Shown in pieces: positions 9,200-61,519 of a stretch of 64,000 nt of DNA. Both the position numbers and the translations under genes were made by a program. The notes under the pieces are model-generated. The model saw nothing but the letters and a program-made list of their open reading frames with translations, made no database searches and was not told the DNA's origin. The first letter of the stretch is position 1. Each line of letters opens with the position of its first letter. Source of the DNA: Eledone cirrhosa (Eukaryota); contig OZ024740.1 of NCBI GenBank assembly GCA_964016885.1, positions 231,570,001-231,634,000 of the forward strand. The letters are read 5' to 3'.

Positions 9200-9585
9200 T
9201 ATATATATACTTCGTTTTTGAATTTGTTTTATTGGAATTTTGTATTTTTAAACATATCTGTATACAGCTATGCTTGAAGCTAAATTATAATTCTATTCTG
9301 TTATAAGTTGAACCAACTTTCATATGCAAATGAGTTTAATCACCTCATTTACACAGATCAGAAAACTATATATTCTCACCTGTTTTCAATCCAGCAGTGC
9401 AAGAGCGGAAGGGATCGTCCTGATGAGAACCAGTTCAGTTCGAAATGCATCGACGATTGTCCCCCTTTCTTCTGCTGGACACCGCCAGGTGGCGATGGCT
9501 GCTGGTGATTGCATAGCTACAGCTTTTTTGAATGTTTATTTATAAACATACCATATTTCTTTAGAAATACAAAAATCCAATACAT
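9200..9585 (+). mobile_element. ~380-bp non-coding element carrying a hammerhead ribozyme; homolog at 42050-42410 (minus)
   Basis: Bounded by (TA)n; shares aatcacctcatttacacaga...gaaaactat and ttgtccccc...ctggac with the reverse complement of 42050-42410. Confidence 0.7.
9414..9457 (+). ncRNA. Minimal type I hammerhead ribozyme (predicted cleavage after AUC, C9451)
   Basis: Helix I ATCGTC/GACGAT; core CTGATGA 9420-9426; helix II GAAC-cagttca-GTTC; GAAA 9442-9445; palindromic helix III ATGCAT. Confidence 0.88.
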
Positions 9586-16271: not shown

Positions 16272-16475
16272 ATAGGAACGAGTAGGACCCCGACGGCTGA
16301 GCTCAAGCCGTTTCGGCGGCTAATTCTGGACTCAATTCAGTCCAGAATTAGCCGTCGAAACGGCTTGAGCTCAGCCGTCGGGGTCCTACTCGTTCCTATT
16401 ACCCACTCTACTACCCTAAGTATTGAGTACTTTGGTGCGTTATGGTCCACTTGGTTCCTTACCACATTTCCTTCG

Positions 16476-16478
<3 letters not shown>
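16272..16478 (+). mobile_element. ~200-bp fold-back element in (TA)n carrying the 3' half of a hammerhead; family of ~6 copies
   Basis: Palindrome ataggaacgagtaggacc...ggtcctactcgttcctat plus a unique tail ending ttccttcgtta. Copies at 39183, 39406, 51497, 53513 and 61194. Confidence 0.8.
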
Positions 16479-16509
<31 letters not shown>

Positions 16510-19724: not shown

Positions 19725-19780
<56 letters not shown>

Positions 19781-19786
<6 letters not shown>

Positions 19787-22700
19787 TAGAATATTCGAAA
19801 ATATTCTGTATGTTTATAATAAACATTTTGAAGACCTAATCGCTATAGAATAGAATACGTCACGTATTACAATTAGATTCTCGATAAAAGCAAGGGAAGT
19901 AATCTACGCGTTTCATTCTTGTTAGAATTCATCAGGACTACATATCCAGTGCTTTTATCGAGAATGACACAGCTAGAGACTTATAGAATACTTAGCTGTG
20001 TACAGGAACTGGTTTGAAAGAGCGGTTGCCGGTCCGGCAGAAATTAGAAATTGGAATAAATGCTCTGAAATAGCGATATATATGTGAATATAGACATAGA
20101 ATATTCGAAAATATTCTGTATGTTTATAATAAACATTTTGAAGACCTAATCGCTATAGAATAGAATACGTCACGTATTACAATTAGATTCTCGATAAAAG
20201 CAAGGGAAGTAATCTACGCGTTTCATTCTTGTTAGAATTCATCAGGACTACATATCCAGTGCTTTTATCGAGAATGACACAGCTAGAGACTTATAGAATA
20301 CTTAGCTGTGTACAGGAACTGGTTTGAAAGAGCGGTTGCCGGTCCGGCAGAAATTAGAAATTGGAATAAATGCTCTGAAATAGCGATATATATGTGAATA
20401 TAGACATAGAATATTCGAAAATATTCTGTATGTTTATAATAAACATTTTGAAGACCTAATCGCTATAGAATAGAATACGTCACGTATTACAATTAGATTC
20501 TCGATAAAAGCAAGGGAAGTAATCTACGCGTTTCATTCTTGTTAGAATTCATCAGGACTACATATCCAGTGCTTTTATCGAGAATGACACAGCTAGAGAC
20601 TTATAGAATACTTAGCTGTGTACAGGAACTGGTTTGAAAGAGCGGTTGCCGGTCCGGCAGAAATTAGAAATTGGAATAAATGCTCTGAAATAGCGATATA
20701 TATGTGAATATAGACATAGAATATTCGAAAATATTCTGTATGTTTATAATAAACATTTTGAAGACCTAATCGCTATAGAATAGAATACGTCACGTATTAC
20801 AATTAGATTCTCGATAAAAGCAAGGGAAGTAATCTACGCGTTTCATTCTTGTTAGAATTCATCAGGACTACATATCCAGTGCTTTTATCGAGAATGACAC
20901 AGCTAGAGACTTATAGAATACTTAGCTGTGTACAGGAACTGGTTTGAAAGAGCGGTTGCCGGTCCGGCAGAAATTAGAAATTGGAATAAATGCTCTGAAA
21001 TAGCGATATATATGTGAATATAGACATAGAATATTCGAAAATATTCTGTATGTTTATAATAAACATTTTGAAGACCTAATCGCTATAGAATAGAATACGT
21101 CACGTATTACAATTAGATTCTCGATAAAAGCAAGGGAAGTAATCTACGCGTTTCATTCTTGTTAGAATTCATCAGGACTACATATCCAGTGCTTTTATCG
21201 AGAATGACACAGCTAGAGACTTATAGAATACTTAGCTGTGTACAGGAACTGGTTTGAAAGAGCGGTTGCCGGTCCGGCAGAAATTAGAAATTGGAATAAA
21301 TGCTCTGAAATAGCGATATATATGTGAATATAGACATAGAATATTCGAAAATATTCTGTATGTTTATAATAAACATTTTGAAGACCTAATCGCTATAGAA
21401 TAGAATACGTCACGTATTACAATTAGATTCTCGATAAAAGCAAGGGAAGTAATCTACGCGTTTCATTCTTGTTAGAATTCATCAGGACTACATATCCAGT
21501 GCTTTTATCGAGAATGACACAGCTAGAGACTTATAGAATACTTAGCTGTGTACAGGAACTGGTTTGAAAGAGCGGTTGCCGGTCCGGCAGAAATTAGAAA
21601 TTGGAATAAATGCTCTGAAATAGCGATATATATGTGAATATAGACATAGAATATTCGAAAATATTCTGTATGTTTATAATAAACATTTTGAAGACCTAAT
21701 CGCTATAGAATAGAATACGTCACGTATTACAATTAGATTCTCGATAAAAGCAAGGGAAGTAATCTACGCGTTTCATTCTTGTTAGAATTCATCAGGACTA
21801 CATATCCAGTGCTTTTATCGAGAATGACACAGCTAGAGACTTATAGAATACTTAGCTGTGTACAGGAACTGGTTTGAAAGAGCGGTTGCCGGTCCGGCAG
21901 AAATTAGAAATTGGAATAAATGCTCTGAAATAGCGATATATATGTGAATATAGACATAGAATATTCGAAAATATTCTGTATGTTTATAATAAACATTTTG
22001 AAGACCTAATCGCTATAGAATAGAATACGTCACGTATTACAATTAGATTCTCGATAAAAGCAAGGGAAGTAATCTACGCGTTTCATTCTTGTTAGAATTC
22101 ATCAGGACTACATATCCAGTGCTTTTATCGAGAATGACACAGCTAGAGACTTATAGAATACTTAGCTGTGTACAGGAACTGGTTTGAAAGAGCGGTTGCC
22201 GGTCCGGCAGAAATTAGAAATTGGAATAAATGCTCTGAAATAGCGATATATATGTGAATATAGACATAGAATATTCGAAAATATTCTGTATGTTTATAAT
22301 AAACATTTTGAAGACCTAATCGCTATAGAATAGAATACGTCACGTATTACAATTAGATTCTCGATAAAAGCAAGGGAAGTAATCTACGCGTTTCATTCTT
22401 GTTAGAATTCATCAGGACTACATATCCAGTGCTTTTATCGAGAATGACACAGCTAGAGACTTATAGAATACTTAGCTGTGTACAGGAACTGGTTTGAAAG
22501 AGCGGTTGCCGGTCCGGCAGAAATTAGAAATTGGAATAAATGCTCTGAAATAGCGATATATATGTGAATATAGACATAGAATATTCGAAAATATTCTGTA
22601 TGTTTATAATAAACATTTTGAAGACCTAATCGCTATAGAATAGAATACGTCACGTATTACAATTAGATTCTCGATAAAAGCAAGGGAAGTAATCTACGCG

Positions 22701-25700
22701 TTTCATTCTTGTTAGAATTCATCAGGACTACATATCCAGTGCTTTTATCGAGAATGACACAGCTAGAGACTTATAGAATACTTAGCTGTGTACAGGAACT
22801 GGTTTGAAAGAGCGGTTGCCGGTCCGGCAGAAATTAGAAATTGGAATAAATGCTCTGAAATAGCGATATATATGTGAATATAGACATAGAATATTCGAAA
22901 ATATTCTGTATGTTTATAATAAACATTTTGAAGACCTAATCGCTATAGAATAGAATACGTCACGTATTACAATTAGATTCTCGATAAAAGCAAGGGAAGT
23001 AATCTACGCGTTTCATTCTTGTTAGAATTCATCAGGACTACATATCCAGTGCTTTTATCGAGAATGACACAGCTAGAGACTTATAGAATACTTAGCTGTG
23101 TACAGGAACTGGTTTGAAAGAGCGGTTGCCGGTCCGGCAGAAATTAGAAATTGGAATAAATGCTCTGAAATAGCGATATATATGTGAATATAGACATAGA
23201 ATATTCGAAAATATTCTGTATGTTTATAATAAACATTTTGAAGACCTAATCGCTATAGAATAGAATACGTCACGTATTACAATTAGATTCTCGATAAAAG
23301 CAAGGGAAGTAATCTAAGCGTTTCATTCTTGTTAGAATTCATCAGGACTACATATCCAGTGCTTTTATCGAGAATGACACAGCTAGAGACTTATAGAATA
23401 CTTAGCTGTGTACAGGAACTGGTTTGAAAGAGCGGTTGCCGGTCCGGCAGAAATTAGAAATTGGAATAAATGCTCTGAAATAGCGATATATATGTGAATA
23501 TAGACATAGAATATTCGAAAATATTCTGTATGTTTATAATAAACATTTTGAAGACCTAATCGCTATAGAATAGAATACGTCACGTATTACAATTAGATTC
23601 TCGATAAAAGCAAGGGAAGTAATCTACGCGTTTCATTCTTGTTAGAATTCATCAGGACTACATATCCAGTGCTTTTATCGAGAATGACACAGCTAGAGAC
23701 TTATAGAATACTTAGCTGTGTACAGGAACTGGTTTGAAAGAGCGGTTGCCGGTCCGGCAGAAATTAGAAATTGGAATAAATGCTCTGAAATAGCGATATA
23801 TATGTGAATATAGACATAGAATATTCGAAAATATTCTGTATGTTTATAATAAACATTTTGAAGACCTAATCGCTATAGAATAGAATACGTCACGTATTAC
23901 AATTAGATTCTCGATAAAAGCAAGGGAAGTAATCTACGCGTTTCATTCTTGTTAGAATTCATCAGGACTACATATCCAGTGCTTTTATCGAGAATGACAC
24001 AGCTAGAGACTTATAGAATACTTAGCTGTGTACAGGAACTGGTTTGAAAGAGCGGTTGCCGGTCCGGCAGAAATTAGAAATTGGAATAAATGCTCTGAAA
24101 TAGCGATATATATGTGAATATAGACATAGAATATTCGAAAATATTCTGTATGTTTATAATAAACATTTTGAAGACCTAATCGCTATAGAATAGAATACGT
24201 CACGTATTACAATTAGATTCTCGATAAAAGCAAGGGAAGTAATCTACGCGTTTCATTCTTGTTAGAATTCATCAGGACTACATATCCAGTGCTTTTATCG
24301 AGAATGACACAGCTAGAGACTTATAGAATACTTAGCTGTGTACAGGAACTGGTTTGAAAGAGCGGTTGCCGGTCCGGCAGAAATTAGAAATTGGAATAAA
24401 TGCTCTGAAATAGCGATATATATGTGAATATAGACATAGAATATTCGAAAATATTCTGTATGTTTATAATAAACATTTTGAAGACCTAATCGCTATAGAA
24501 TAGAATACGTCACGTATTACAATTAGATTCTCGATAAAAGCAAGGGAAGTAATCTACGCGTTTCATTCTTGTTAGAATTCATCAGGACTACATATCCAGT
24601 GCTTTTATCGAGAATGACACAGCTAGAGACTTATAGAATACTTAGCTGTGTACAGGAACTGGTTTGAAAGAGCGGTTGCCGGTCCGGCAGAAATTAGAAA
24701 TTGGAATAAATGCTCTGAAATAGCGATATATATGTGAATATAGACATAGAATATTCGAAAATATTCTGTATGTTTATAATAAACATTTTGAAGACCTAAT
24801 CGCTATAGAATAGAATACGTCACGTATTACAATTAGATTCTCGATAAAAGCAAGGGAAGTAATCTACGCGTTTCATTCTTGTTAGAATTCATCAGGACTA
24901 CATATCCAGTGCTTTTATCGAGAATGACACAGCTAGAGACTTATAGAATACTTAGCTGTGTACAGGAACTGGTTTGAAAGAGCGGTTGCCGGTCCGGCAG
25001 AAATTAGAAATTGGAATAAATGCTCTGAAATAGCGATATATATGTGAATATAGACATAGAATATTCGAAAATATTCTGTATGTTTATAATAAACATTTTG
25101 AAGACCTAATCGCTATAGAATAGAATACGTCACGTATTACAATTAGATTCTCGATAAAAGCAAGGGAAGTAATCTACGCGTTTCATTCTTGTTAGAATTC
25201 ATCAGGACTACATATCCAGTGCTTTTATCGAGAATGACACAGCTAGAGACTTATAGAATACTTAGCTGTGTACAGGAACTGGTTTGAAAGAGCGGTTGCC
25301 GGTCCGGCAGAAATTAGAAATTGGAATAAATGCTCTGAAATAGCGATATATATGTGAATATAGACATAGAATATTCGAAAATATTCTGTATGTTTATAAT
25401 AAACATTTTGAAGACCTAATCGCTATAGAATAGAATACGTCACGTATTACAATTAGATTCTCGATAAAAGCAAGGGAAGTAATCTACGCGTTTCATTCTT
25501 GTTAGAATTCATCAGGACTACATATCCAGTGCTTTTATCGAGAATGACACAGCTAGAGACTTATAGAATACTTAGCTGTGTACAGGAACTGGTTTGAAAG
25601 AGCGGTTGCCGGTCCGGCAGAAATTAGAAATTGGAATAAATGCTCTGAAATAGCGATATATATGTGAATATAGACATAGAATATTCGAAAATATTCTGTA

Positions 25701-28700
25701 TGTTTATAATAAACATTTTGAAGACCTAATCGCTATAGAATAGAATACGTCACGTATTACAATTAGATTCTCGATAAAAGCAAGGGAAGTAATCTACGCG
25801 TTTCATTCTTGTTAGAATTCATCAGGACTACATATCCAGTGCTTTTATCGAGAATGACACAGCTAGAGACTTATAGAATACTTAGCTGTGTACAGGAACT
25901 GGTTTGAAAGAGCGGTTGCCGGTCCGGCAGAAATTAGAAATTGGAATAAATGCTCTGAAATAGCGATATATATGTGAATATAGACATAGAATATTCGAAA
26001 ATATTCTGTATGTTTATAATAAACATTTTGAAGACCTAATCGCTATAGAATAGAATACGTCACGTATTACAATTAGATTCTCGATAAAAGCAAGGGAAGT
26101 AATCTACGCGTTTCATTCTTGTTAGAATTCATCAGGACTACATATCCAGTGCTTTTATCGAGAATGACACAGCTAGAGACTTATAGAATACTTAGCTGTG
26201 TACAGGAACTGGTTTGAAAGAGCGGTTGCCGGTCCGGCAGAAATTAGAAATTGGAATAAATGCTCTGAAATAGCGATATATATGTGAATATAGACATAGA
26301 ATATTCGAAAATATTCTGTATGTTTATAATAAACATTTTGAAGACCTAATCGCTATAGAATAGAATACGTCACGTATTACAATTAGATTCTCGATAAAAG
26401 CAAGGGAAGTAATCTACGCGTTTCATTCTTGTTAGAATTCATCAGGACTACATATCCAGTGCTTTTATCGAGAATGACACAGCTAGAGACTTATAGAATA
26501 CTTAGCTGTGTACAGGAACTGGTTTGAAAGAGCGGTTGCCGGTCCGGCAGAAATTAGAAATTGGAATAAATGCTCTGAAATAGCGATATATATGTGAATA
26601 TAGACATAGAATATTCGAAAATATTCTGTATGTTTATAATAAACATTTTGAAGACCTAATCGCTATAGAATAGAATACGTCACGTATTACAATTAGATTC
26701 TCGATAAAAGCAAGGGAAGTAATCTACGCGTTTCATTCTTGTTAGAATTCATCAGGACTACATATCCAGTGCTTTTATCGAGAATGACACAGCTAGAGAC
26801 TTATAGAATACTTAGCTGTGTACAGGAACTGGTTTGAAAGAGCGGTTGCCGGTCCGGCAGAAATTAGAAATTGGAATAAATGCTCTGAAATAGCGATATA
26901 TATGTGAATATAGACATAGAATATTCGAAAATATTCTGTATGTTTATAATAAACATTTTGAAGACCTAATCGCTATAGAATAGAATACGTCACGTATTAC
27001 AATTAGATTCTCGATAAAAGCAAGGGAAGTAATCTACGCGTTTCATTCTTGTTAGAATTCATCAGGACTACATATCCAGTGCTTTTATCGAGAATGACAC
27101 AGCTAGAGACTTATAGAATACTTAGCTGTGTACAGGAACTGGTTTGAAAGAGCGGTTGCCGGTCCGGCAGAAATTAGAAATTGGAATAAATGCTCTGAAA
27201 TAGCGATATATATGTGAATATAGACATAGAATATTCGAAAATATTCTGTATGTTTATAATAAACATTTTGAAGACCTAATCGCTATAGAATAGAATACGT
27301 CACGTATTACAATTAGATTCTCGATAAAAGCAAGGGAAGTAATCTACGCGTTTCATTCTTGTTAGAATTCATCAGGACTACATATCCAGTGCTTTTATCG
27401 AGAATGACACAGCTAGAGACTTATAGAATACTTAGCTGTGTACAGGAACTGGTTTGAAAGAGCGGTTGCCGGTCCGGCAGAAATTAGAAATTGGAATAAA
27501 TGCTCTGAAATAGCGATATATATGTGAATATAGACATAGAATATTCGAAAATATTCTGTATGTTTATAATAAACATTTTGAAGACCTAATCGCTATAGAA
27601 TAGAATACGTCACGTATTACAATTAGATTCTCGATAAAAGCAAGGGAAGTAATCTACGCGTTTCATTCTTGTTAGAATTCATCAGGACTACATATCCAGT
27701 GCTTTTATCGAGAATGACACAGCTAGAGACTTATAGAATACTTAGCTGTGTACAGGAACTGGTTTGAAAGAGCGGTTGCCGGTCCGGCAGAAATTAGAAA
27801 TTGGAATAAATGCTCTGAAATAGCGATATATATGTGAATATAGACATAGAATATTCGAAAATATTCTGTATGTTTATAATAAACATTTTGAAGACCTAAT
27901 CGCTATAGAATAGAATACGTCACGTATTACAATTAGATTCTCGATAAAAGCAAGGGAAGTAATCTACGCGTTTCATTCTTGTTAGAATTCATCAGGACTA
28001 CATATCCAGTGCTTTTATCGAGAATGACACAGCTAGAGACTTATAGAATACTTAGCTGTGTACAGGAACTGGTTTGAAAGAGCGGTTGCCGGTCCGGCAG
28101 AAATTAGAAATTGGAATAAATGCTCTGAAATAGCGATATATATGTGAATATAGACATAGAATATTCGAAAATATTCTGTATGTTTATAATAAACATTTTG
28201 AAGACCTAATCGCTATAGAATAGAATACGTCACGTATTACAATTAGATTCTCGATAAAAGCAAGGGAAGTAATCTACGCGTTTCATTCTTGTTAGAATTC
28301 ATCAGGACTACATATCCAGTGCTTTTATCGAGAATGACACAGCTAGAGACTTATAGAATACTTAGCTGTGTACAGGAACTGGTTTGAAAGAGCGGTTGCC
28401 GGTCCGGCAGAAATTAGAAATTGGAATAAATGCTCTGAAATAGCGATATATATGTGAATATAGACATAGAATATTCGAAAATATTCTGTATGTTTATAAT
28501 AAACATTTTGAAGACCTAATCGCTATAGAATAGAATACGTCACGTATTACAATTAGATTCTCGATAAAAGCAAGGGAAGTAATCTACGCGTTTCATTCTT
28601 GTTAGAATTCATCAGGACTACATATCCAGTGCTTTTATCGAGAATGACACAGCTAGAGACTTATAGAATACTTAGCTGTGTACAGGAACTGGTTTGAAAG

Positions 28701-28860
28701 AGCGGTTGCCGGTCCGGCAGAAATTAGAAATTGGAATAAATGCTCTGAAATAGCGATATATATGTGAATATAGACATAGAATATTCGAAAATATTCTGTA
28801 TGTTTATAATAAACATTTTGAAGACCTAATCGCTATAGAATAGAATACGTCACGTATTAC
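19781..28860 (-). mobile_element. Left arm of a retrozyme-like array: ~29.3 head-to-tail 310-bp units, one hammerhead per complete unit on the minus strand
   Basis: tagacataga recurs every 310 bp from 19781; units essentially identical; starts directly after (TA)n. Confidence 0.92.
19899..19941 (-). ncRNA. Minimal type I hammerhead (first of 29 in the left arm, period 310 bp)
   Basis: Minus strand: GUAGUC-CUGAUGA-AUUCU-aaca-AGAAU-GAAA-CGC-GUA-GAUUAC. Confidence 0.9.
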
Positions 28861-31017
28861 CGGACCGGCAACCGCTCTTTCAAACCAGTTCCTGTACACA
28901 GCTAAGTATTCTATAAGTCTCTAGCTGTGTCATTCTCGATAAAAGCACTGGATATGTAGTCCTGATGAATTCTAACAAGAATGAAACGCGTAGATTACTT
29001 CCCTTGCTTTTATCGAGAATCTAATTGTAATACGTGACGTATTCTATTCTATAGCGATTAGGTCTTCAAAATGTTTATTATAAACATACAGAATATTTTC
29101 GAATATTCTATGTCTATATTCACATATATATCGCTATTTCAGAGCATTTATTCCAATTTCTAATTTCTGCCGGACCGGCAACCGCTCTTTCAAACCAGTT
29201 CCTGTACACAGCTAAGTATTCTATAAGTCTCTAGCTGTGTCATTCTCGATAAAAGCACTGGATATGTAGTCCTGATGAATTCTAACAAGAATGAAACGCG
29301 TAGATTACTTCCCTTGCTTTTATCGAGAATCTAATTGTAATACGTGACGTATTCTATTCTATAGCGATTAGGTCTTCAAAATGTTTATTATAAACATACA
29401 GAATATTTTCGAATATTCTATGTCTATATTCACATATATATCGCTATTTCAGAGCATTTATTCCAATTTCTAATTTCTGCCGGACCGGCAACCGCTCTTT
29501 CAAACCAGTTCCTGTACACAGCTAAGTATTCTATAAGTCTCTAGCTGTGTCATTCTCGATAAAAGCACTGGATATGTAGTCCTGATGAATTCTAACAAGA
29601 ATGAAACGCGTAGATTACTTCCCTTGCTTTTATCGAGAATCTAATTGTAATACGTGACGTATTCTATTCTATAGCGATTAGGTCTTCAAAATGTTTATTA
29701 TAAACATACAGAATATTTTCGAATATTCTATGTCTATATTCACATATATATCGCTATTTCAGAGCATTTATTCCAATTTCTAATTTCTGCCGGACCGGCA
29801 ACCGCTCTTTCAAACCAGTTCCTGTACACAGCTAAGTATTCTATAAGTCTCTAGCTGTGTCATTCTCGATAAAAGCACTGGATATGTAGTCCTGATGAAT
29901 TCTAACAAGAATGAAACGCGTAGATTACTTCCCTTGCTTTTATCGAGAATCTAATTGTAATACGTGACGTATTCTATTCTATAGCGATTAGGTCTTCAAA
30001 ATGTTTATTATAAACATACAGAATATTTTCGAATATTCTATGTCTATATTCACATATATATCGCTATTTCAGAGCATTTATTCCAATTTCTAATTTCTGC
30101 CGGACCGGCAACCGCTCTTTCAAACCAGTTCCTGTACACAGCTAAGTATTCTATAAGTCTCTAGCTGTGTCATTCTCGATAAAAGCACTGGATATGTAGT
30201 CCTGATGAATTCTAACAAGAATGAAACGCGTAGATTACTTCCCTTGCTTTTATCGAGAATCTAATTGTAATACGTGACGTATTCTATTCTATAGCGATTA
30301 GGTCTTCAAAATGTTTATTATAAACATACAGAATATTTTCGAATATTCTATGTCTATTTTCACATATATATCGCTATTTCAGAGCATTTATTCCAATTTC
30401 TAATTTCTGCCGGACCGGCAACCGCTCTTTCAAACCAGTTCCTGTACACAGCTAAGTATTCTATAAGTCTCTAGCTGTGTCATTCTCGATAAAAGCACTG
30501 GATATGTAGTCCTGATGAATTCTAACAAGAATGAAACGCGTAGATTACTTCCCTTGCTTTTATCGAGAATCTAATTGTAATACGTGACGTATTCTATTCT
30601 ATAGCGATTAGGTCTTCAAAATGTTTATTATAAACATACAGAATATTTTCGAATATTCTATGTCTATATTCACATATATATCGCTATTTCAGAGCATTTA
30701 TTCCAATTTCTAATTTCTGCCGGACCGGCAACCGCTCTTTCAAACCAGTTCCTGTACACAGCTAAGTATTCTATAAGTCTCTAGCTGTGTCATTCTCGAT
30801 AAAAGCACTGGATATGTAGTCCTGATGAATTCTAACAAGAATGAAACGCGTAGATTACTTCCCTTGCTTTTATCGAGAATCTAATTGTAATACGTGACGT
30901 ATTCTATTCTATAGCGATTAGGTCTTCAAAATGTTTATTATAAACATACAGAATATTTTCGAATATTCTATGTCTATATTCACATATATATCGCTATTTC
31001 AGAGCATTTATTCCAAT
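28861..31017 (+). mobile_element. Right (inverted) arm of the 310-bp array: ~7 units, hammerheads on the plus strand
   Basis: Abrupt switch at cacgtattac|cggaccggca to the reverse complement of the unit; ends ttccaat into (TA)n. Confidence 0.92.
28956..28998 (+). ncRNA. Minimal type I hammerhead (first of 7 in the right arm); predicted cleavage after GUA, A28992
   Basis: Helix I GTAGTC/GATTAC, core CTGATGA 28962-28968, helix II ATTCT/AGAAT, GAAA 28983-28986, palindromic helix III ACGCGT. Outer stem ATTCTCGATAAAAGCA/TGCTTTTATCGAGAAT. Confidence 0.92.
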
Positions 31018-35808: not shown

Positions 35809-36188
<380 letters not shown>

Positions 36189-39148
36189 TTTACTAGATTT
36201 CTATAAGAATATAACAATTTTGTCACTACTTTAAAACAATAGCTTACGGTCTTCAAAATGCTTTTAATTAAGCATAAAGTGTATTGCAAAATACATTATA
36301 TATACATCCATATATATATTGCTATTTCAGAGCTCCAATTCTAATTTTTAATTTCTGCCTGACCAACAACGCTCTGCATAATCAGCTCCTGATTATTTAC
36401 TAGATTTCTATAAGAATATAACATCAATGAACTCAGTAAACAGGTGGGGTGTTTGGCCTTGATAAGCTTCAACCAAAGCGAAACAAGTCTTGTCGGCTTA
36501 TCTCCCCTGTTTGCTGAGATCAAAGTGAGTGAATTTGTCACTACTTTAAAACAATAGCTTACGGTCTTCAAAATGCTTTTCATCAAGCATAAAGTGTATT
36601 GCAAAATACATTATATATACATCCATATATATATTGCTATTTCAGAGCTCCAATTCTAATCTTTAATTTCTGCCTGACCAACAACCGCTCTGCATAATCA
36701 GCTCCTGATTATTTATTAGATTTCTATAAGAATATAACATCAATGATCTCAGTAAACAGGTGGGGTAGTTGGCCTTGATAAGCTTCAATCAAAGCGAAAC
36801 AAGTCTTGTCGGCTTATCTCCCCTGTTTGCTGAGATCAAAGTGAGTGAATTTGTCACTACTTTAAAACAATAGCTTACGGTCTTCAAAATGCTTTTCATC
36901 AAGCATAAAGTGTATTGCAAAATACATTATATATACATCCATATATATATTGCTATTTCAGAGCTCCAATTCTAATCTTTAATTTCTGCCTGACCAACAA
37001 CCGCTCTGCATAATCAGCTCCTGATTATTTATTAGATTTCTATAAGAATATAACATCAATGATCTCAGTAAACAGGTGGGGTAGTTGGCCTTGATAAGCT
37101 TCAATCAAAGCGAAACAAGTCTTGTCGGCTTATCTCCCCTGTTTGCTGAGATCAAAGTGAGTGAATTTGTCACTACTTTAAAACAATAGCTTACGGTCTT
37201 CAAAATGCTTTTCATCAAGCATAAAGTGTATTGCAAAATACATTATATATACATCCATATATATATTGCTATTTCAGAGCTCCAATTCTAATCTTTAATT
37301 TCTGCCTGACCAACAACCGCTCTGCATAATCAGCTCCTGATTATTTATTAGATTTCTATAAGAATATAACATCAATGATCTCAGTAAACAGGTGGGGTAG
37401 TTGGCCTTGATAAGCTTCAACCAAAGCGAAACAAGTCTTGTCGGCTTATCTCCCCTGTTTGCTGAGATCAAAGTGAGTGAATTTGTCACTACTTTAAAAC
37501 AATAGCTTACGGTCTTCAAAATGCTTTTAATTAAGCATAAAGTGTATTGCAAAATACATTATATATACATCCATATATATATTGCTATTTCAGAGCTCCA
37601 ATTCTAATTTTTAATTTCTGCCTGACCAACAACCGCTCTGCATAATCAGCTCCATATTATTTACTAGATTTCTATAAGAATATAACATCAATGATCTCAG
37701 TAAACAGGTGGGGTAGTTGGCCTTGATAAGCTTCAATCAAAGCGAAACAAGTCTTGTCGGCTTATCTCCCGTTTGCTGAGATCAAAGTGAGTGAATTTGT
37801 CACTACTTTAAAACAATAGCTTACGGTCTTCAAAATGCTTTTCATCAAGCATAAAGTGTATTGCAAAATACATTATATATACATCCATATATATATTGCT
37901 ATTTCAGAGCTCCAATTCTAATCTTTAATTTCTGCCTGACCAACAACCGCTCTGCATAATCAGCTCCTGATTATTTATTAGATTTCTATAAGAATATAAC
38001 ATCAATGATCTCAGTAAACAGGTGGGGTAGTTGGCCTTGATAAGCTTCAATCAAAGCGAAACAAGTCTTGTCGGCTTATCTCCCCTGTTTGCTGAGATCA
38101 AAGTGAGTGAATTTGTCACTACTTTAAAACAATAGCTTACGGTCTTCAAAATGCTTTTCATCAAGCATAAAGTGTATTGCAAAATACATTATATATACAT
38201 CCATATATATATTGCTATTTCAGAGCTCCAATTCTAATCTTTAATTTCTGCCTGACCAACAACCGCTCTGCATAATCAGCTCCTGATTATTTATTAGATT
38301 TCTATAAGAATATAACATCAATGATCTCAGTAAACAGGTGGGGTAGTTGGCCTTGATAAGCTTCAATCAAAGCGAAACAAGTCTTGTCGGCTTATCTCCC
38401 CTGTTTGCTGAGATCAAAGTGAGTGAATTTGTCACTACTTTAAAACAATAGCTTACGGTCTTCAAAATGCTTTTCATCAAGCATAAAGTGTATTGCAAAA
38501 TACATTATATATACATCCATATATATATTGCTATTTCAGAGCTCCAATTCTAATCTTTAATTTCTGCCTGACCAACAACCGCTCTGCATAATCAGCTCCT
38601 GATTATTTATTAGATTTCTATAAGAATATAACATCAATGATCTCAGTAAACAGGTGGGGTAGTTGGCCTTGATAAGCTTCAATCAAAGCGAAACAAGTCT
38701 TGTCGGCTTATCTCCCCTGTTTGCTGAGATCAAAGTGAGTGAATTTGTCACTACTTTAAAACAATAGCTTACGGTCTTCAAAATGCTTTTCATCAAGCAT
38801 AAAGTGTATTGCAAAATACATTATATATACATCCATATATATATTGCTATTTCAGAGCTCCAATTCTAATCTTTAATTTCTGCCTGACCAACAACCGCTC
38901 TGCATAATCAGCTCCTGATTATTTATTAGATTTCTATAAGAATATAACATCAATGATCTCAGTAAACAGGTGGGGTAGTTGGCCTTGATAAGCTTCAACC
39001 AAAGCGAAACAAGTCTTGTCGGCTTATCTCCCCTGTTTGCTGAGATCAAAGTGAGTGAATTTGTCACTACTTTAAAACAATAGCTTACGGTCTTCAAAAT
39101 GCTTTTAATTAAGCATAAAGTGTATTGCAAAATACATTATATATACAT

Positions 39149-39152
<4 letters not shown>
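36189..39152 (+). mobile_element. Right arm of the 316-bp array: one internally deleted unit plus 9 hammerhead-bearing units
   Basis: tgctatttcagagc at 36951, 37267, etc. (period 316); ends catcc into (TA)n; shares blocks with the 310-bp unit. Confidence 0.92.
36771..36814 (+). ncRNA. Type I hammerhead with a U3-A8 variant core (representative of 10 copies)
   Basis: GGCC-TTGATAA-GCTT-caatca-AAGC-GAAACAA-gtc-TTGTC-GGCT; outer stem GATCTCAGTAAACAGG/CCTGTTTGCTGAGATC. Confidence 0.85.
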
Positions 39153-39182
<30 letters not shown>

Positions 39183-39187
<5 letters not shown>

Positions 39188-39326
39188 AACGAGTAGGACC
39201 CCGACGGCTGAGCTCAAGCCGTTTAGACGGCTAATTCTGGACTGAATTAGCCGTCGAAACGGCTTGAACTCAGCCGTCGGGGTCCTACTTGTTCCTATTA
39301 CCTACTCTACTACCACATTTCTTCCG

Positions 39327-39408
<82 letters not shown>

Positions 39409-39490
39409 CGAAGGAAATGTGGTAAGGGACCAGGTGGACCATAACGCACCAAAGTACTCAATACTTAGGGTAGTAGAGTTGGTAATATTA
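39183..39490. mobile_element. Two partial copies of the ~200-bp fold-back family separated by (TA)n
   Basis: 39183-39328 (+, internal deletion in the tail) and 39406-39490 (-, tail only). Confidence 0.75.
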
Positions 39491-39514
39491 TTATATATAT
39501 ATATATATATAAAC

Positions 39515-41118
39515 ATATAAATGTAAGTATGTATGTATACGTACATACATATATGTATACAGACGTACAGTAGTATGCATATATATACATACCTGCACAC
39601 ATATATATATGCACGTATCGGTTTACCGAACATTTGCTATAATGCTCGGTTTGTTTGTAAATAAACAAACAGCCCGAATTATGACGTACAGTGTTTAGGC
39701 AACCACTTCACCTTTTTGTTCAACACTGACACAGGAACAATGTACTAGTTTCAAGCTTATTAGCTATCGTCAGCATCGTATACCTTCCTGCCAGATGGTT
39801 GAACGCCTGAAAGTATATACTTTCTTTATGCATATTGACGGCTGAGCAGCCCAATTTGCATATCGAGTGAGTTTAATCAGTCGGGCGCACGGAAACGATA
39901 AATGGAATAGAATGAAACGAAATTTCATTTCTCACTCTTAGTACGGCAGCTACTTAAATGTAAATATGTATGTATGTATACTTACATACATATATGTATA
40001 CAGACGTACAGTATTATGTATATATATACATACATGCACACATATATATATGCACGTATCGGTTTACCGAACATTTATTATAATGCTCGGTTTGTTTGGA
40101 AACAAACAAACAGCCCGAATTATGCCGTACAGTGTTTAGGCAACCACGTCACCTTTTTGTTCAACACTGACACAGGAACTATGTACTAGTTTCAAGCTTA
40201 TTAGCTATCGTCAGCATCGGATACCTTCCTGCCAGATGGTTGAACGTCTGAAAGTATATACTTTCCTTATGCATATTAACGGCTGAGCAGCCCAGTTTGC
40301 ATATCGAGTGAGTTTAGTCGACCGGGGGCACCGAAAACGATAAATGGAATAGAATGAAATGAAATTTCATTTGTCACTCTTAGTACGGCAGTTACTTAAA
40401 TGTAAGTATGTATGTATACGTACATACATATATGTATACAGACGTACAGTAGTATGTATATATATACATACATGCATACATATATATATGCACGTATCGG
40501 TTTACCGAACATTTATTATAATGCTCGGTTTGTTTGTAAACAAACAAACAGCCCGAATTATGCCGCACAGTGTTTAGGCAACCACGTCACCTTTTTGTTC
40601 AACACGGACACAGGAACGATGTACTAGTTTCAAGCTTATTAGCTATCGTCAGCATCGTATACCTTCCTGCCAGATGGTTGAAGGTTTGAAAGTATATACT
40701 TTCCTTATGCATATTAACGGCTGAGCAGCCCAATTTGCATATCGAGTGAGTTTAGTCGGCCGGGCGCACCGAAAACGATAAATGGAATAGAATGGCAGGA
40801 AGGTATACAATGCTGACGATAGCTAATAAGCTTGAAACTAGTACATCGTTCCTGCGTCAGTGTTGAACAAAAGGTGTCGTGGTTGCCTAAACACTGTACG
40901 GCATAATTCGGGCTGTTTATTTACAAACAAACCGAGCATTATAATAAATTTTCGGTAAACCGATACGTGCATATATATATGTGGTCATGTATGTATATAT
41001 ATACATACTACTGTACGTCTGTAATATATGTATGTATGTATACATACATACATACTTACATTTAAGTAACTACCGTACTAAGAGTGAGAAATGAAATTTC
41101 GTTTCATTCTATTCCATT

Positions 41119-41120
<2 letters not shown>
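39515..41120. mobile_element. ~440-bp hammerhead-bearing array: ~2.9 units (minus sense) plus an inverted partial unit from ~40794
   Basis: Unit starts at 39519, 39957 and 40398; inversion at gaatagaatg|gcaggaagg; flanked by (TA)n; units more diverged than in the 310/316 arrays. Confidence 0.88.
40616..40658 (-). ncRNA. Minimal type I hammerhead (also at 39737-39779 and ~40178-40220 minus; 40807-40849 plus)
   Basis: Minus strand: ACGAUG-CUGACGA-uAGCU-aaua-AGCUu-GAAA-CUA-GUA-CAUCGU; palindromic helix III ACUAGU. Confidence 0.85.
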
Positions 41121-41165
<45 letters not shown>

Positions 41166-41168
<3 letters not shown>

Positions 41169-42040
41169 TTACCATCTGATTAATTGGTGAAATATATTTC
41201 TTTAATGGAATATATACAGGGAAGATTAATCATATTATAAGGTATCTATTTTTGAAGTTCTAGTCAACTTTATTTAGTTACCTACCTAACTATGTGTGGT
41301 TACACACTTGTAAAAATCATCTCCTGTGATTATTTATGTTTATATATATGTTAATCAATTTCTAGTTATAAAATGCTCGGACCTACTCGATAGAATCTTT
41401 GGGCTTATTTTCCGGGTGATATGGCGCATGCCGTTATGGCATGACACCCATAATTTTGATTTAGATTAAATTCATTTAATTTATCTTAATTTTGGATATA
41501 GATATATAAATACGGCTCCTTAATTGTAGAGCTAACTCTGTTGAAAGGAATCGACTGCTGTTTCTAGTTGTCGATAACCATATTCAGGCCACTGAGACTA
41601 AGCTGCTGTGATGTGTAAATACAACACGTGGTAGTAGCCAGTTGCAAATTTGAACTTGTAGTGTAAACATGGATTGCTGGAAATTTTCTTCCTTGTTGAA
41701 AATCCAAAATATCCACTTCCGTGCTTTACCATCTGATTAATTGGTGAAATATATTTCTTTAATGGAATATATACAGGGAAGATTAATCATATTATAAGGT
41801 ATCTATTTTTGAAGTTCTAGTCAACTTTATTTAGTTACCTACCTAGCTATGTGTGGTTACACACTTGTAAAAATTATCTTCTGTGATTATTCATGTTTAT
41901 ATATATGTTAATCAATTTCTAGTTATTATAAAATGCTCGGACCTACTCGATAGAATCTTTGAGCTTATTTTCCGGGTGATATGGCATGACACCCATAATT
42001 TTGATTTAGATTAAATTCATTTAATTTATCTTAATTTTGG
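41166..42040. repeat. ~560-bp unit, ~1.5 tandem copies; second locus at 45965-46610
   Basis: tttaccatctgattaattggtgaaat at ~41168, ~41725 and ~46406; flanked by (TA)n. Confidence 0.85.
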
Positions 42041-42049
42041 ATATATATA

Positions 42050-42410
42050 TATATATGTATAGAAATTTCGTATTTCGAAAGAAATACGATTTTAGGAAGC
42101 CGTAGTTATGCGAAACCGGGAGGCTAACGCGCTCTGGTGTTGTCCAGTAGAAGCAAGGGGGACAACCGTCTATGCATTTCAGGCTTGACTGGCTTTCGGC
42201 AGGACGCTCCCTCCCACTTTTTTGTGTCTGCTGGCTTGAAAACAGCCGAGAACATATAGTTTTCTCGTCTGTGTAAATGAGGTGATTAATCTCATTTGTA
42301 TATGAAGCTGCATTATTTGGCTCAACGTATAATAGAAAAGAAATAGGATTTCGCTTCAATCATAGCTTTATACAATATTCATAGAAATTACGTATTTCGA
42401 AAAATCGTAT
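42050..42410 (-). mobile_element. Diverged homolog of the 9200-9585 element with a mutated hammerhead (42165-42206)
   Basis: Minus strand: CGUC-CUGCCGA-...-GAAAUGCAUA-GACG; core A6 changed to C. Confidence 0.7.
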
Positions 42411-45964: not shown

Positions 45965-46610
45965 CACACTTGGTTACACACTTGTAAAAATTATCTCCTG
46001 TGATTATTCATGTTTATATATATGTTAATCAATTTCTAGTTATTATTAAATGCTTGGACCTACTCGTTAGAATCTTAGAGCTTATTTTCCGGGTGATATG
46101 GCGCATGTCTTTCTGGCATGACACCCATAATTTTGATTTAGATTAAATTCATTTATCTTAATTTTGGATATAGATATATAAATACGGCTCCTTAATTGTA
46201 GAGCTAACTCTGTTGAAAGGACTCGACTGCTGTTTCTAGTTGTCGATAACCCTATTCAGGCCACTGGGACGAAGCTACTATGATGTGTGTATTTCTGGTA
46301 AATACTACACGTGGTGATAGCCAGTCGCAAATTTGAACTTGAAGTGTAAGCGCGGATAGCTGAAAATTTCTTCCTTGTTGAAAATCCAAGTATCCACTTC
46401 CGTGGTTTACCATCTGATTAATTGGTGAAATATATTCCTTTAATGGAATATATACAGGGAAGATTAATCATATTATAAGGTATTTATTTTTGAAGTTCTA
46501 GTCAACTTTATTTAGTTACCTACCTAGCTATGTGTGGTTACACACTTGTAAAAATTATCTTCTGTGATTATTCATGCTTATTTATATGTTAATCAATTTC
46601 TAGTTATTAT
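45965..46610. repeat. Second locus of the ~560-bp unit (~1.15 copies, circularly permuted relative to 41166)
   Basis: ggttacacacttgtaaaaattatct at ~45972 and ~46536. Confidence 0.85.
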
Positions 46611-51439: not shown

Positions 51440-51496
51440 AATAAATTCTATATACCCGCATTTCCATTTCGTTAATTTTTTCTCCATATATATATA

Positions 51497-51676
51497 TAAC
51501 GAAGGAGTTGTGGTAAGGAACCAGATGGACCATAATGCACCAGGTACTCAATACTTAGGGTAGTAGAGTGGGTAATAGGAAAAAGTATGACCCCGACGGC
51601 AGATTCAAGCCGTTTCGACAGAAATAGCCATCGAAACGGCTTGAGCTCTGCCGTCCGGATCATACTTTTTCCTATA
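51497..51676 (-). mobile_element. Diverged copy of the ~200-bp fold-back family
   Basis: taacgaagga...cttagggtagtagagtgggtaatagg...cctatata. Confidence 0.8.
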
Positions 51677-51678
51677 TA

Positions 51679-51756
<78 letters not shown>

Positions 51757-52114
51757 ATATATACATAAGTGTGAGTGTGTGCGCGTGTGTGTGTATATAT
51801 ATATATATACATAAGTGTGAGTATGTGCGTGTGTGTGTGTATGTATATGTGTGAGTGAGTATGTGTGTGTAAAGAGTGTGAGAGAGAGAATTGAATTGTT
51901 TTTAAATCACACATCATATTAATTGTATGTATATCTATATAACGTATGAATGAAACATTTAACATACTGTATTGATATTTGATACTTTGTGGTTGTTTCT
52001 AATTAATTGGCGAAATTTCCACGTGATCAGCTACTAAAAAAATTAAAACCTGAAAATGAACGACGTAATTCAATTTGTCTGACGCTCTAACGATTCAGGC
52101 AAGCCAAATAATTT

Positions 52115-53451: not shown

Positions 53452-53512
<61 letters not shown>

Positions 53513-53517
<5 letters not shown>

Positions 53518-53720
53518 AACGAGTAGGACCCCGACGGCTGAGCTCAAGCCGTTTCGACGGCTAATTCTGGACTAAAAATTCTGGACTAAGAATTAGCCGT
53601 CGAAACGGCTTCAGCTCAGCCGTCGGGGTCCTACTCGTTCCTATTACCCACTCTACTACCCTAAGTATTGAGTACTTTGGTGCGTTATGGTCCACCTGGT
53701 TCCTTACCACATTTCCTTCG

Positions 53721-53722
<2 letters not shown>
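53513..53722 (+). mobile_element. Copy of the ~200-bp fold-back family (in the calmodulin-like intron)
   Basis: Nearly identical to 16272-16478 except at the palindrome centre. Confidence 0.85.
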
Positions 53723-53754
<32 letters not shown>

Positions 53755-54626: not shown

Positions 54627-55264
54627 TCCACTGTGCTTATTCCATGCTTGCTGGACATCTTTTCTCTGGCTTAATCGCTTTGTTCGCTAGTTTTGCAACT
54701 TATATGCATATATATATAAGAAAATGATGGGTTTCTTTTTAAAGAGATGTCCCACACGGGTGAAAGTATAAGGAAAAGTAATTGAAAATGCAACTGGGGT
54801 CTTTTAAGAATATTTATTTACTTATGTTCTTATGATTTTAAAAAGTAAAATTGAGATGGAGGGTTTGTGTTTCTGTTGTGGTTTGTCTCGCATCTCATAT
54901 ATACATATGTATGTATGCGCATGTGCGTATGTTTGTACAAGTGCATCCTACCAATAAAAATACACGCATCAGTTGAGTTTCATTACGCTACTATAATCGG
55001 GCATAAGATTGACGATCTGCATATAGCATTAAATTGAGAGAACCTTTACATATTCACTCGATTTATTAAAAAATAACTTTCCAACATTTCAAGTCAAACC
55101 CTGCATAATATCGTTCTAAATATACCTAAAAACCGGGGTGGTTACAGCTGGAATGTTTGTAGTCATAGGTTTGCTTAATAAAGTCTGACCTAGTATTATA
55201 ACCAACAAGAACATCAACAACGACAATTCTGCTACTATCCAAGACTCAGTACGATCACTCTTAC

Positions 55265-55507
55265 CTTGATAGTTTATTTTACCGTCTCCGTCAAAGTCGG
55301 CCTCTTTGATCATATCCTCCACCTCCTTGTCACTCAGCTTCTCGCCTAAATTCATCATGACGTGACGCAATTCATCAGCATTGATGAAACCGTCTCCATT
55401 CTTGTCGAACACTTTGAAGGCGTCTGTCACTTCCTGCAACTCGTTCGTCTCGGATTGACGTTTTGACATCATAGCCAGGAACTCATTGAACTCTATGGTG
55501 CCGTTAC
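55265..55507 (-). CDS. Calmodulin-like EF-hand protein, internal 243-nt exon (end of EF2 through EF4)
   Basis: cctcag|GTAACGGC...CAAG|gtaag; encodes [16 protein letters not shown]...[52 protein letters not shown]. Boundaries correspond to the conserved calmodulin introns at CDS nt 178 and 421. Upstream exons not found in the window. Confidence 0.93.
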
Positions 55508-60722: not shown

Positions 60723-61181
<459 letters not shown>

Positions 61182-61193
61182 ATATATTTATAT

Positions 61194-61376
61194 ATAGGAA
61201 CAAGTAAGACCCCGACGGCTGAGCTCAAGCCGTTTCGACGGCTAATTCTGGACGAAACAGCTTGAGCTCAGCCGTTGGGGTCTTACTTGTTCCTATTACC
61301 CACTCTACTACCCTAAGTATTGAGTAGTTTGGTGCGTTATGATCCACCTGGTTCCTTACCACATTTCCTTCGTTAT
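61194..61376 (+). mobile_element. Copy of the ~200-bp fold-back family
   Basis: ataggaacaagtaagacc...ggtcttacttgttcctat...ttccttcgtta. Confidence 0.85.
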
Positions 61377-61519
61377 ATTTATATATATATATATATATTA
61401 AATAAAACCAAATCAAAACGAAGAGATTCATAGAGGAACATGTATGCCGAAAGAGCTTTGGCAATTAAAATTGAGGCGGTTACTAAACGATCCAAGGAAT
61501 GGATTAGTTACCTGACTTA

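What the first reader, a model, noticed from the sequence alone, without database searches (positions are those of the whole stretch)
39515..41120. Unrelated ~440-bp array with its own hammerhead (CUGACGA core)
Seen: no obvious similarity to the 310/316 units, yet each unit has ACGAUG-CUGACGA-uAGCU(aaua)AGCUu-GAAACUAGUA-CAUCGU with palindromic helix III, a possible distal extension (GCAGGAA/UUCCUGU), and the same divergent-arm layout. Inference: an independent family using the same mobilisation machinery.
Basis: partly seen in the sequence, partly recalled or inferred. Interest (0 to 1): 0.72.

Follow-up and report, generated by a model that had tools for sequence, protein, structure and literature searches.

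The report
Penelope-type hammerhead retrozyme, two-armed insertion
This is one of thousands of copies of a small non-coding repeat carrying a predicted self-cutting RNA motif, and its back-to-back arms, one ending at a short and one at a long fixed point, match the footprint of Penelope-like jumping genes in the same genome, which likely supply the enzyme that copies it.

Summary
The array is real: 2.9 units of 438 bp (39518-40794, ribozyme on minus) joined to an inverted 329-bp arm (40793-41120), with four identical hammerhead cores. The core has 12,384 exact genome matches. Its helices covary across the 438, 466-470 and 310 families. Corrections: only one of four copies has a perfect helix I. 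The conserved distal helix is AGG/CCU, not GCAGGAA/UUCCUGU. The unit body is unrelated to 310/316 but is a full-length homologue of a 466-470-bp family, so it is not independent. Copies have variable 5' ends and two fixed 3' ends 57 nt apart, mostly abutting (TA)n. Of 50 two-armed insertions with both ends at fixed sites, 46 pair one short with one long end. Seven of seven resolvable two-armed coding Penelope-like insertions do the same. Best reading: a non-LTR retrozyme copied by a Penelope-type reverse transcriptase from both sides of a cut. Cleavage, expression, circularity and the helper's identity are unshown. It is a new member of a known kind. The scan earlier reported this layout, and a 422/424-bp form that I take to be this family's subfamily, elsewhere in this genome.

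The parts
39518..40794 (-). Left arm, 1277 nt, 2.9 units. Runs from unit position 266 (5') to the short fixed end, position 225; positions are counted from the predicted cleavage site.
40793..41120 (+). Right, inverted arm, 329 nt, from unit position 388 (5') through the ribozyme to the long fixed end, position 282. The two arms overlap by 2 nt at the head-to-head junction (40793-40794).
40612..40664 (-). Best predicted type I hammerhead: 6-bp helix I (40658-40653 with 40621-40616), core, U.U at the base of 4-bp helix II, 1-bp helix III with palindromic tetraloop, predicted cut between 40622 and 40621, distal AGG/CCU helix
40178..40220 (-). Hammerhead copy, intact core, two mismatches in helix I
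39737..39779 (-). Hammerhead copy, intact core, one G.U in helix I
40807..40849 (+). Hammerhead copy in the inverted arm, intact core, one A.C mismatch in helix I
39518..39531 (-). Short fixed 3' end (small hairpin, unit position about 225), running into a TA tract
41065..41120 (+). 57-nt 'tail' between the two fixed ends, with a hairpin; the long fixed 3' end is at 41120
40420..40498 (-). Long microsatellite-derived hairpin (unit 124-202), present in each unit and pairing also in the 466-470 family
40733..40740 (-). Octamer-like motif about 60 nt upstream of the ribozyme region (also near 40296-40302 and 39854-39861), conserved in the 466-470 family. Candidate internal promoter element, untested; the name of the motif is recalled.
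   Evidence: (125 of about 143 listed copies carry the majority 8-mer)
41121..41168 (.). (TA)n tract at the long end, the inferred target; a second TA tract lies at about 39490-39517 by the short end

Best explanation
This is one insertion of an abundant, non-coding, hammerhead-bearing repeat family (a non-LTR retrozyme) that was likely copied into a TA tract by a Penelope-type reverse transcriptase/endonuclease borrowed from a coding element. Inferred cycle: an internal promoter would give multimeric RNA. Paired hammerheads would cut it, as dimers because helix III is a 1-bp palindrome, into 438-nt units that may be circularised. The helper would cut both strands of (TA)n, and each DNA end would prime reverse transcription at its own internal start site (positions about 225 and 282), pairing through 2-3 nt of TA. 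The two cDNAs run for variable lengths and are joined at their 5' ends, giving back-to-back arms with one short and one long end. All units of this insertion descend from one unit sequence and have since decayed by about 2-3% each. Shown: array, copy number, covariation, fixed ends, pairing rule, same rule in coding elements. Inferred: promoter, cleavage, RNA intermediate, helper, circle.
For: 12,384 core matches, control 0. 11 of 16 hammerhead pairs change on both sides across 13 homologues, with 97.1% of cells paired against at most 51% for slid controls (only three related lineages). Core intact in 51 of 57 copies from the similarity search. In 119 insertions from 108 loci, 163 of 178 outer 3' ends fall at the two sites; 60 insertions are divergent and 1 was parsed as convergent; 46 of 50 with both ends at fixed sites are short/long (45 of 49 without one duplicate, p 8e-10). 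134 of 161 such ends have (TA)4 within 34 nt, against 357 of 4747 background windows. Coding Penelope-like elements: 5 of 5 and 2 of 2 resolvable divergent pairs are short/long. The homologous 466-470 family ends at the homologous positions. A variant at 2.5% genome frequency (160 vs 6,314) is in 3 of 3 passes of the left arm, and a commoner one is in 4 of 4 passes over both arms. Literature: inverted 5'-truncated copy, one-sided tail and (TA)n bias in PLEs (PMC8557442, passages); two internal start sites define the tail and both strands are cut and extended (PMC11167929, parts 1-2 of 4).
Against: No coding element sharing sequence with the unit was found among 146 Penelope-like 3' regions; the best tail matches are short AT-rich ones. 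No strand bias pointing to an edited RNA intermediate: A>G 41 vs T>C 22 (p 0.031) in subfamily A rests on about 10 events at one recurrent site, and B (17 vs 12) and C (11 vs 12) show none. No Rfam hammerhead match at any threshold used. The isolated motif folds no better than shuffles (z -0.85) and its lowest-energy fold ties up the core. DNA-level amplification also occurs in this family (L233 pattern; a 60-kb array with higher-order repeats), so shared variants do not prove repeated copying of one RNA. 15 of 178 ends lie elsewhere, and 4 of 50 pairs break the rule. In Xenopus 8 of 9 predicted retrozyme dimers did not cleave in vitro (bioRxiv 10.64898/2026.07.22.740005).
Confidence: 0.82

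Rival explanations
1. Same helper, but the template is a linear, largely uncut multimeric transcript primed twice (twin priming). The ribozyme and any circle are by-products or irrelevant to insertion.
For: In this locus the right arm starts at position 388, where 5 of 179 mapped arm 5' ends fall at 388-389 and where a transcript might start. The left arm stops at 266, 16 nt past the other start site. Several long arms stop near position 225 (L014, L247, L272, L277). In the lizard element, ribozyme mutants did not affect insertion in vitro (PMC11167929).
Against: 5' ends cluster at several hairpins (57-76, 85-106, 250-274, 316-357), so 388 is not unique. Array-wide rare variants need repeated single-unit bottlenecks. 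The ribozyme has been kept with compensatory changes between families about 35% apart.
Confidence: 0.35
2. A satellite or fold-back DNA element amplified and dispersed by DNA mechanisms, with a vestigial hammerhead.
For: A 60-kb array with higher-order repeats at G000:C2:382.98-383.04 Mb, an unequal-crossover pattern in L233, and long hairpins in the unit.
Against: Most copies are short and dispersed, with variable 5' ends and two fixed 3' ends of one polarity. There are no terminal inverted repeats of fixed sequence. The short/long rule is shared with reverse-transcriptase elements, and the ribozyme covaries.
Confidence: 0.07
3. A SINE-like element mobilised by an ordinary LINE (RTE/CR1 type, abundant in the window).
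For: LINE reverse-transcriptase fragments are common in the window and loci. 5' truncation and inversion also occur in LINE insertions (established knowledge, recalled).
Against: No tRNA-derived head, no poly(A) end, and two internal fixed ends rather than one terminal end. The tail at one end only is described as peculiar to Penelope-like elements (PMC8557442, PMC11167929).
Confidence: 0.05

Closest known systems
Metazoan non-LTR retrozymes (Cervera and de la Pena 2020, PMC7229834, parts 2-4 of 6 and passages read; Li, Clavereau and Pollet 2026, bioRxiv 10.64898/2026.07.22.740005, parts 1-3 of 5 and passages read)
   Same: Non-coding, low-GC tandem units in the 150-450 bp range, each with a type I hammerhead; thousands of copies; co-occurs with Penelope-like elements.
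   Different: Neither text describes inverted arms or two fixed ends (word searches; supplements not read). Cleavage and circular RNA are shown there and untested here. No parent pLTR was found here, whereas 21 of 57 Xenopus families matched one.
Axolotl HHR_Amex1 / HHR_Amex2 and newt satellite 2 hammerheads (PMC7229834)
   Same: One-base-pair helix III with a palindromic tetraloop (as Amex1) and a U.U at the base of helix II (as Amex2); weak as monomers, better as dimers. Newt satellite 2 has an internal snRNA-type promoter (cited in PMC2220036, passage; the original paper was not available).
   Different: This motif combines both weakening features. Sequence is not compared with the amphibian elements, and the promoter here is only a conserved motif.
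Penelope-like elements with endonuclease: pseudo-LTR, inverted copy and tail (Craig 2021 PMC8557442, passages; Frangieh 2024 PMC11167929, parts 1-2 of 4; Cervera 2014 PMC4209133, passages)
   Same: 5' truncation, partial tandems, an inverted copy at the 5' end, a tail at one end only, two internal start sites, TA-rich targets.
   Different: No open reading frame. The tail is 57 nt rather than 30-40. The ribozyme is the canonical 6-bp/4-bp type I form, not the minimal pLTR form.
MRC1 and other non-autonomous Chlamys elements (PMC8557442, passage)
   Same: Non-autonomous Penelope-type elements forming multicopy head-to-tail insertions.
   Different: Those share their 3' end with an autonomous family and mostly lack a hammerhead; here a hammerhead is present and no shared end was found.

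Membership tests
Metazoan non-LTR retrozyme | Short (150-450 bp), low-GC, non-coding tandem unit in many copies | tested here: met
   438 bp, about 34% GC in the region, only low-complexity frames; 12,384 core matches
Metazoan non-LTR retrozyme | Type I hammerhead motif in consecutive units | tested here: met
   Core intact in all 4 window copies; helix I perfect in 1 of 4; covariation
Metazoan non-LTR retrozyme | Self-cleavage | not testable with these tools
   Needs an in vitro assay
Metazoan non-LTR retrozyme | Expressed as unit-length linear and circular RNA | not testable with these tools
   No RNA run was listed; this is no evidence either way
Canonical metazoan type I hammerhead (PMC4209133) | Helix I 6 bp, helix II 4 bp, helix III 1-2 bp with a palindromic loop, conserved loops 1 and 2 | tested here: met
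   loop contents are conserved across 438, 466-470 and 310, but the tertiary contact itself is inferred
Canonical metazoan type I hammerhead (PMC4209133) | G10.1-C11.1 pair at the base of helix II | tested here: not met
   U.U in all 438-family copies aligned, G-C in the 466-470 family; the same U.U occurs in the active axolotl HHR_Amex2 (PMC7229834)
Rfam hammerhead families | Match to a covariance model | tested here: not met
   0 matches at gathering score in the whole window, including the 310 array; none of 105 matches at E up to 10 is a hammerhead
Non-autonomous Penelope-like element | Variable 5' ends, tandem units and an inverted 5'-truncated copy | tested here: met
   60 divergent of 119 insertions
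Non-autonomous Penelope-like element | Two fixed 3' ends with the tail at one end only, in (TA)n | tested here: met
   163 of 178 ends; 46 of 50 pairs; 134 of 161 ends next to TA
Non-autonomous Penelope-like element | Sequence shared with the pLTR of an autonomous family | tested here: inconclusive
   None among 146 sampled 3' regions from a few families, out of tens of thousands of candidates
tRNA-derived SINE | tRNA-like head and single A-rich 3' end | tested here: not met

The most novel reading that the evidence does not exclude
Each insertion is the product of one Penelope-type enzyme dimer that cuts both strands of (TA)n and copies a single circular 438-nt ribozyme RNA round and round from both DNA ends, each end obliged to use a different one of two start sites. 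The short/long rule would then be a genomic record of rolling-circle target-primed reverse transcription of an animal retrozyme, a step proposed in PMC4209133 and PMC7229834 but not shown there. The young coding family with a 60-nt tail (L188/L189 type) would be the first helper to test.
Probability: 0.35. Interest if true: 0.65.

Novelty: new member of a known kind. Interest (0 to 1): 0.42.

Why it matters
Animal retrozymes are assumed to be moved by Penelope-like elements, on grounds of co-occurrence and pLTR similarity. This family adds insertion-level evidence: two fixed start sites, one per arm, the same rule as in coding elements of the same genome. It defines exact nucleotides and a natural 438-nt template for an in vitro test with a purified Penelope-type enzyme, linear against circular. 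The homology to the 466-470 family also supplies covariation for the ribozyme and the conserved hairpins. The class itself is known, and this copy is a partly decayed one.

Tried and rejected
Search for the helper: genome searches with the GIY-YIG family and three local Penelope-like proteins and fetches found family copies only as separate insertions in nearby TA tracts. Local alignment of tail, promoter and 5' segments to 146 3' regions gave nothing clearly above AT-rich background. By tail length the 60-nt family fits best; by end sequence another family has a 13-14-nt AT-rich resemblance; neither is evidence. RNA-editing scar: not supported. Circular dimer template suggested by alternating units in L233: rejected, since two columns show an A-B-C-B-C order that fits unequal crossover. 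L237 alternates at two columns across both arms and is unexplained. L273 has one alternating column, compatible with chance. Collision of one cDNA with the other start site: 8 of 45 long arms stop at 205-245 by my count, against about 4 expected; inconclusive. Rfam matches to microRNA families are microsatellite hairpins far below their thresholds. Seven rare matches to a relaxed ribozyme pattern lack helix I and adjacent Penelope frames. Literature searches for a cephalopod description found only an Rfam count of 235 hammerheads in the giant squid genome (PMC6962438, passage); most subscription papers and all supplements were not seen. Sequence look-up of earlier findings gave one irrelevant hit.

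Full report
Observation. The window holds a 438-bp tandem array at 39518-40794 (2.9 copies) and an inverted partial copy at 40793-41120. Counting unit positions from the predicted cleavage site on the ribozyme strand, the left arm (minus) runs from 266 through two whole units to 225, and the right arm (plus) runs from 388 to 282. Both outer ends run into TA tracts. Four identical 31-nt hammerhead cores are present. Helix I is perfect only at 40616-40658; the other three copies carry a G.U, two mismatches and an A.C. The two whole units agree at 416 of 438 positions. Rfam gives no hammerhead at gathering score anywhere in the window, nor among 105 weak matches in the region.

It is a dispersed family. 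The window lies in a 3.0-Gb animal genome; earlier notes call it a cephalopod, which I did not test. The exact 34-nt core pattern occurs 12,384 times, the reversed control 0 times. Aligned copies fall into several subfamilies of 420-442 bp. Divergence from the subfamily majority is 2.8%, 3.4% and 4.4% in the three counted (37, 15 and 13 loci). The catalytic core is intact in 51 of 57 copies from the similarity search.

Relationships. With the ribozyme trimmed off, the unit does not align to the 310 or 316 units better than shuffles (z 2.0, 1.1), while 310 and 316 are homologous (z 15). A relaxed ribozyme pattern found another abundant family of 466-470 bp (9,560 matches). It is collinear with the 438 unit over its whole length (z 11.8 and 13.9; 251 matches over 376 nt), keeps the same hairpins and an octamer-like motif, and ends at homologous positions (about 231 and 300; 7 of 8 copies shown). 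So the family is distinct from 310/316 but not independent.

The ribozyme. In an ungapped alignment of 13 copies from the 438, 466-470 and 310 families, 97.1% of cells pair and 11 of 16 pairs change on both sides, against at most 51% pairing for slid controls. These are only three related lineages, so the counts are not independent events. All share a 6-bp helix I, a UAW/U internal loop, loop II UAAYAA and a palindromic helix III, which matches the description of canonical metazoan type I motifs that work as dimers (PMC4209133, passages). The distal helix conserved in all 13 is AGG/CCU (100%). Within the 438 family alone, one helix I pair occurs as A-U, G.U, U.G and C-G. Against strong activity: U.U at the base of helix II, a 1-bp helix III, and a lowest-energy fold that pairs the core with the helix III loop. 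The intermolecular helix III duplex is -6.8 kcal/mol. Axolotl motifs with each of these weaknesses cleave 6% and 22% as monomers and better as dimers (PMC7229834). The whole unit folded as a circle is far more stable than shuffles (z -6.5, 40 shuffles), largely owing to microsatellite hairpins.

Insertion anatomy. I parsed 38 loci from the similarity search and 70 loci covering the first 100 listed pattern matches, after dropping overlapping loci and low-complexity-only hits. The first set is biased towards copies that span the query; the second is not selected on ends. Of 119 insertions, 60 are divergent and 1 was parsed as convergent. Of 178 outer 3' ends, 80 fall at 196-232 (short; the window is wide because of microsatellite slippage), 83 at 266-286 (long) and 15 elsewhere or at a locus edge. 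Of 50 divergent insertions with both ends at these sites, 46 have one of each, 3 are short/short and 1 long/long; 10 more have one end elsewhere. Without one duplicated insertion this is 45 of 49, p 8e-10 against one half. (TA)4 follows 134 of 161 ends, against 7.5% of background windows. The 310 and 316 arrays of the window obey the same rule with ends 26 nt apart.

The same rule in coding elements. The genome has tens of thousands of candidate Penelope-like endonuclease domains. One family has reverse-transcriptase and GIY-YIG Pfam hits. A second has only a weak reverse-transcriptase hit and a third none, so these two are assigned by motifs read by eye. In the second family 12 regions were examined: 5 had both ends of a divergent pair resolved and all 5 are short/long, 60 nt apart (two read from the printed sequence because my pattern missed them). 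In the third family 2 of 2 are short/long, about 158 nt apart; one further fetched region was not analysed. Craig et al. describe the inverted copy, the tail at one end only and (TA)n bias (PMC8557442). Frangieh et al. show that the tail is the stretch between two internal start sites and that both strands are cut and extended (PMC11167929). The two retrozyme papers do not mention such ends in their main text.

Template. In this locus only two differences from the subfamily majority are shared by all passes over a position: one in 3 of 3 passes of the left arm, at 2.5% genome frequency, and one in 4 of 4 passes over both arms, carried by 10 of 37 loci. One more site is shared by two passes and the rest are single. 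The units therefore descend from one unit sequence. Three other loci share a rare variant across both arms (L058, L223, L262). This fits repeated copying of a circle, but also a homogeneous donor array or later duplication. Both DNA-level processes are seen: unequal crossover in L233 and a 60-kb array with higher-order repeats. The locus also fits twin priming of a linear precursor starting at position 388. 5' ends cluster at several hairpins and only 2 of 179 fall at positions 1-4, so cut linear monomers are not the main template. No editing bias was found. Circle against uncut multimer is unresolved.

What was not found. No helper sharing sequence with the unit among 146 sampled 3' regions. 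No RNA run was listed. No tRNA head. Searches found no paper describing this family; supplements and most subscription journals were not seen.

Verdict. A new member of the animal non-LTR retrozymes that works like a non-autonomous Penelope-like element (0.82). Membership rests on sequence and structure; cleavage and circular RNA are untested. My reading was formed before I consulted earlier notes. They report the same layout for several families in this genome, including 422/424-bp arrays that I take, from unit length and end spacing, to be a subfamily of this one. They are unchecked and are not counted as support. Interest 0.42.

Noticed in passing
window 19766-31017 and 35916-39160: The 310 and 316 arrays are homologous (74% over 145 nt), both two-armed with short/long ends 26 nt apart. 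The 316 ribozyme appears to have a U3-A8 core variant.
   Followed up: partly
G000:C2:382,983,000-383,044,000 (L375-L381): About 60-kb one-strand satellite of the 442-bp form of this family, with higher-order repeats and no inverted arm carrying the anchor motif in the flanking 18-20 kb.
   Followed up: partly
L281-L329: 466-470-bp sister family with compensatory changes in helix I and II and a G-C at the base of helix II; arrays up to at least 31 units, divergent pairs.
   Followed up: partly
L237 (G000:C1:19518400-19521800): Two columns alternate A-B-A in one arm and B in the other, which could record a dimeric template.
   Followed up: partly
window 39186-39490; also 16275-16506, 51486-51768, 53452-53753, 61095-61398: Another small repeated element with a strong hairpin, found as inverted pairs at TA tracts; it forms the left flank of the array.
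   Followed up: no
window 41169-42056 and 45971-46607: A 557-bp tandem repeat (1.6 copies) forms the right flank, with a permuted copy 4 kb away; no hammerhead found by my scanner.
   Followed up: partly
window 9408-9465 (+): A separate well-formed type I hammerhead with a 7-bp helix I and palindromic helix III, outside any array found by the tandem finder.
   Followed up: no
window about 55170-55500 (-): Calmodulin-like EF-hand exon (Pfam EF-hand_7, E 5e-19); the repeat cluster may lie in or near that gene.
   Followed up: partly
L091-L110, L112-L118, L141-L189: Coding Penelope-like families carry hammerhead-like motifs after the frame, several with U3-A8 cores and palindromic helix III. One family is very young (97-99% protein identity over the 150 listed matches).
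   Followed up: partly
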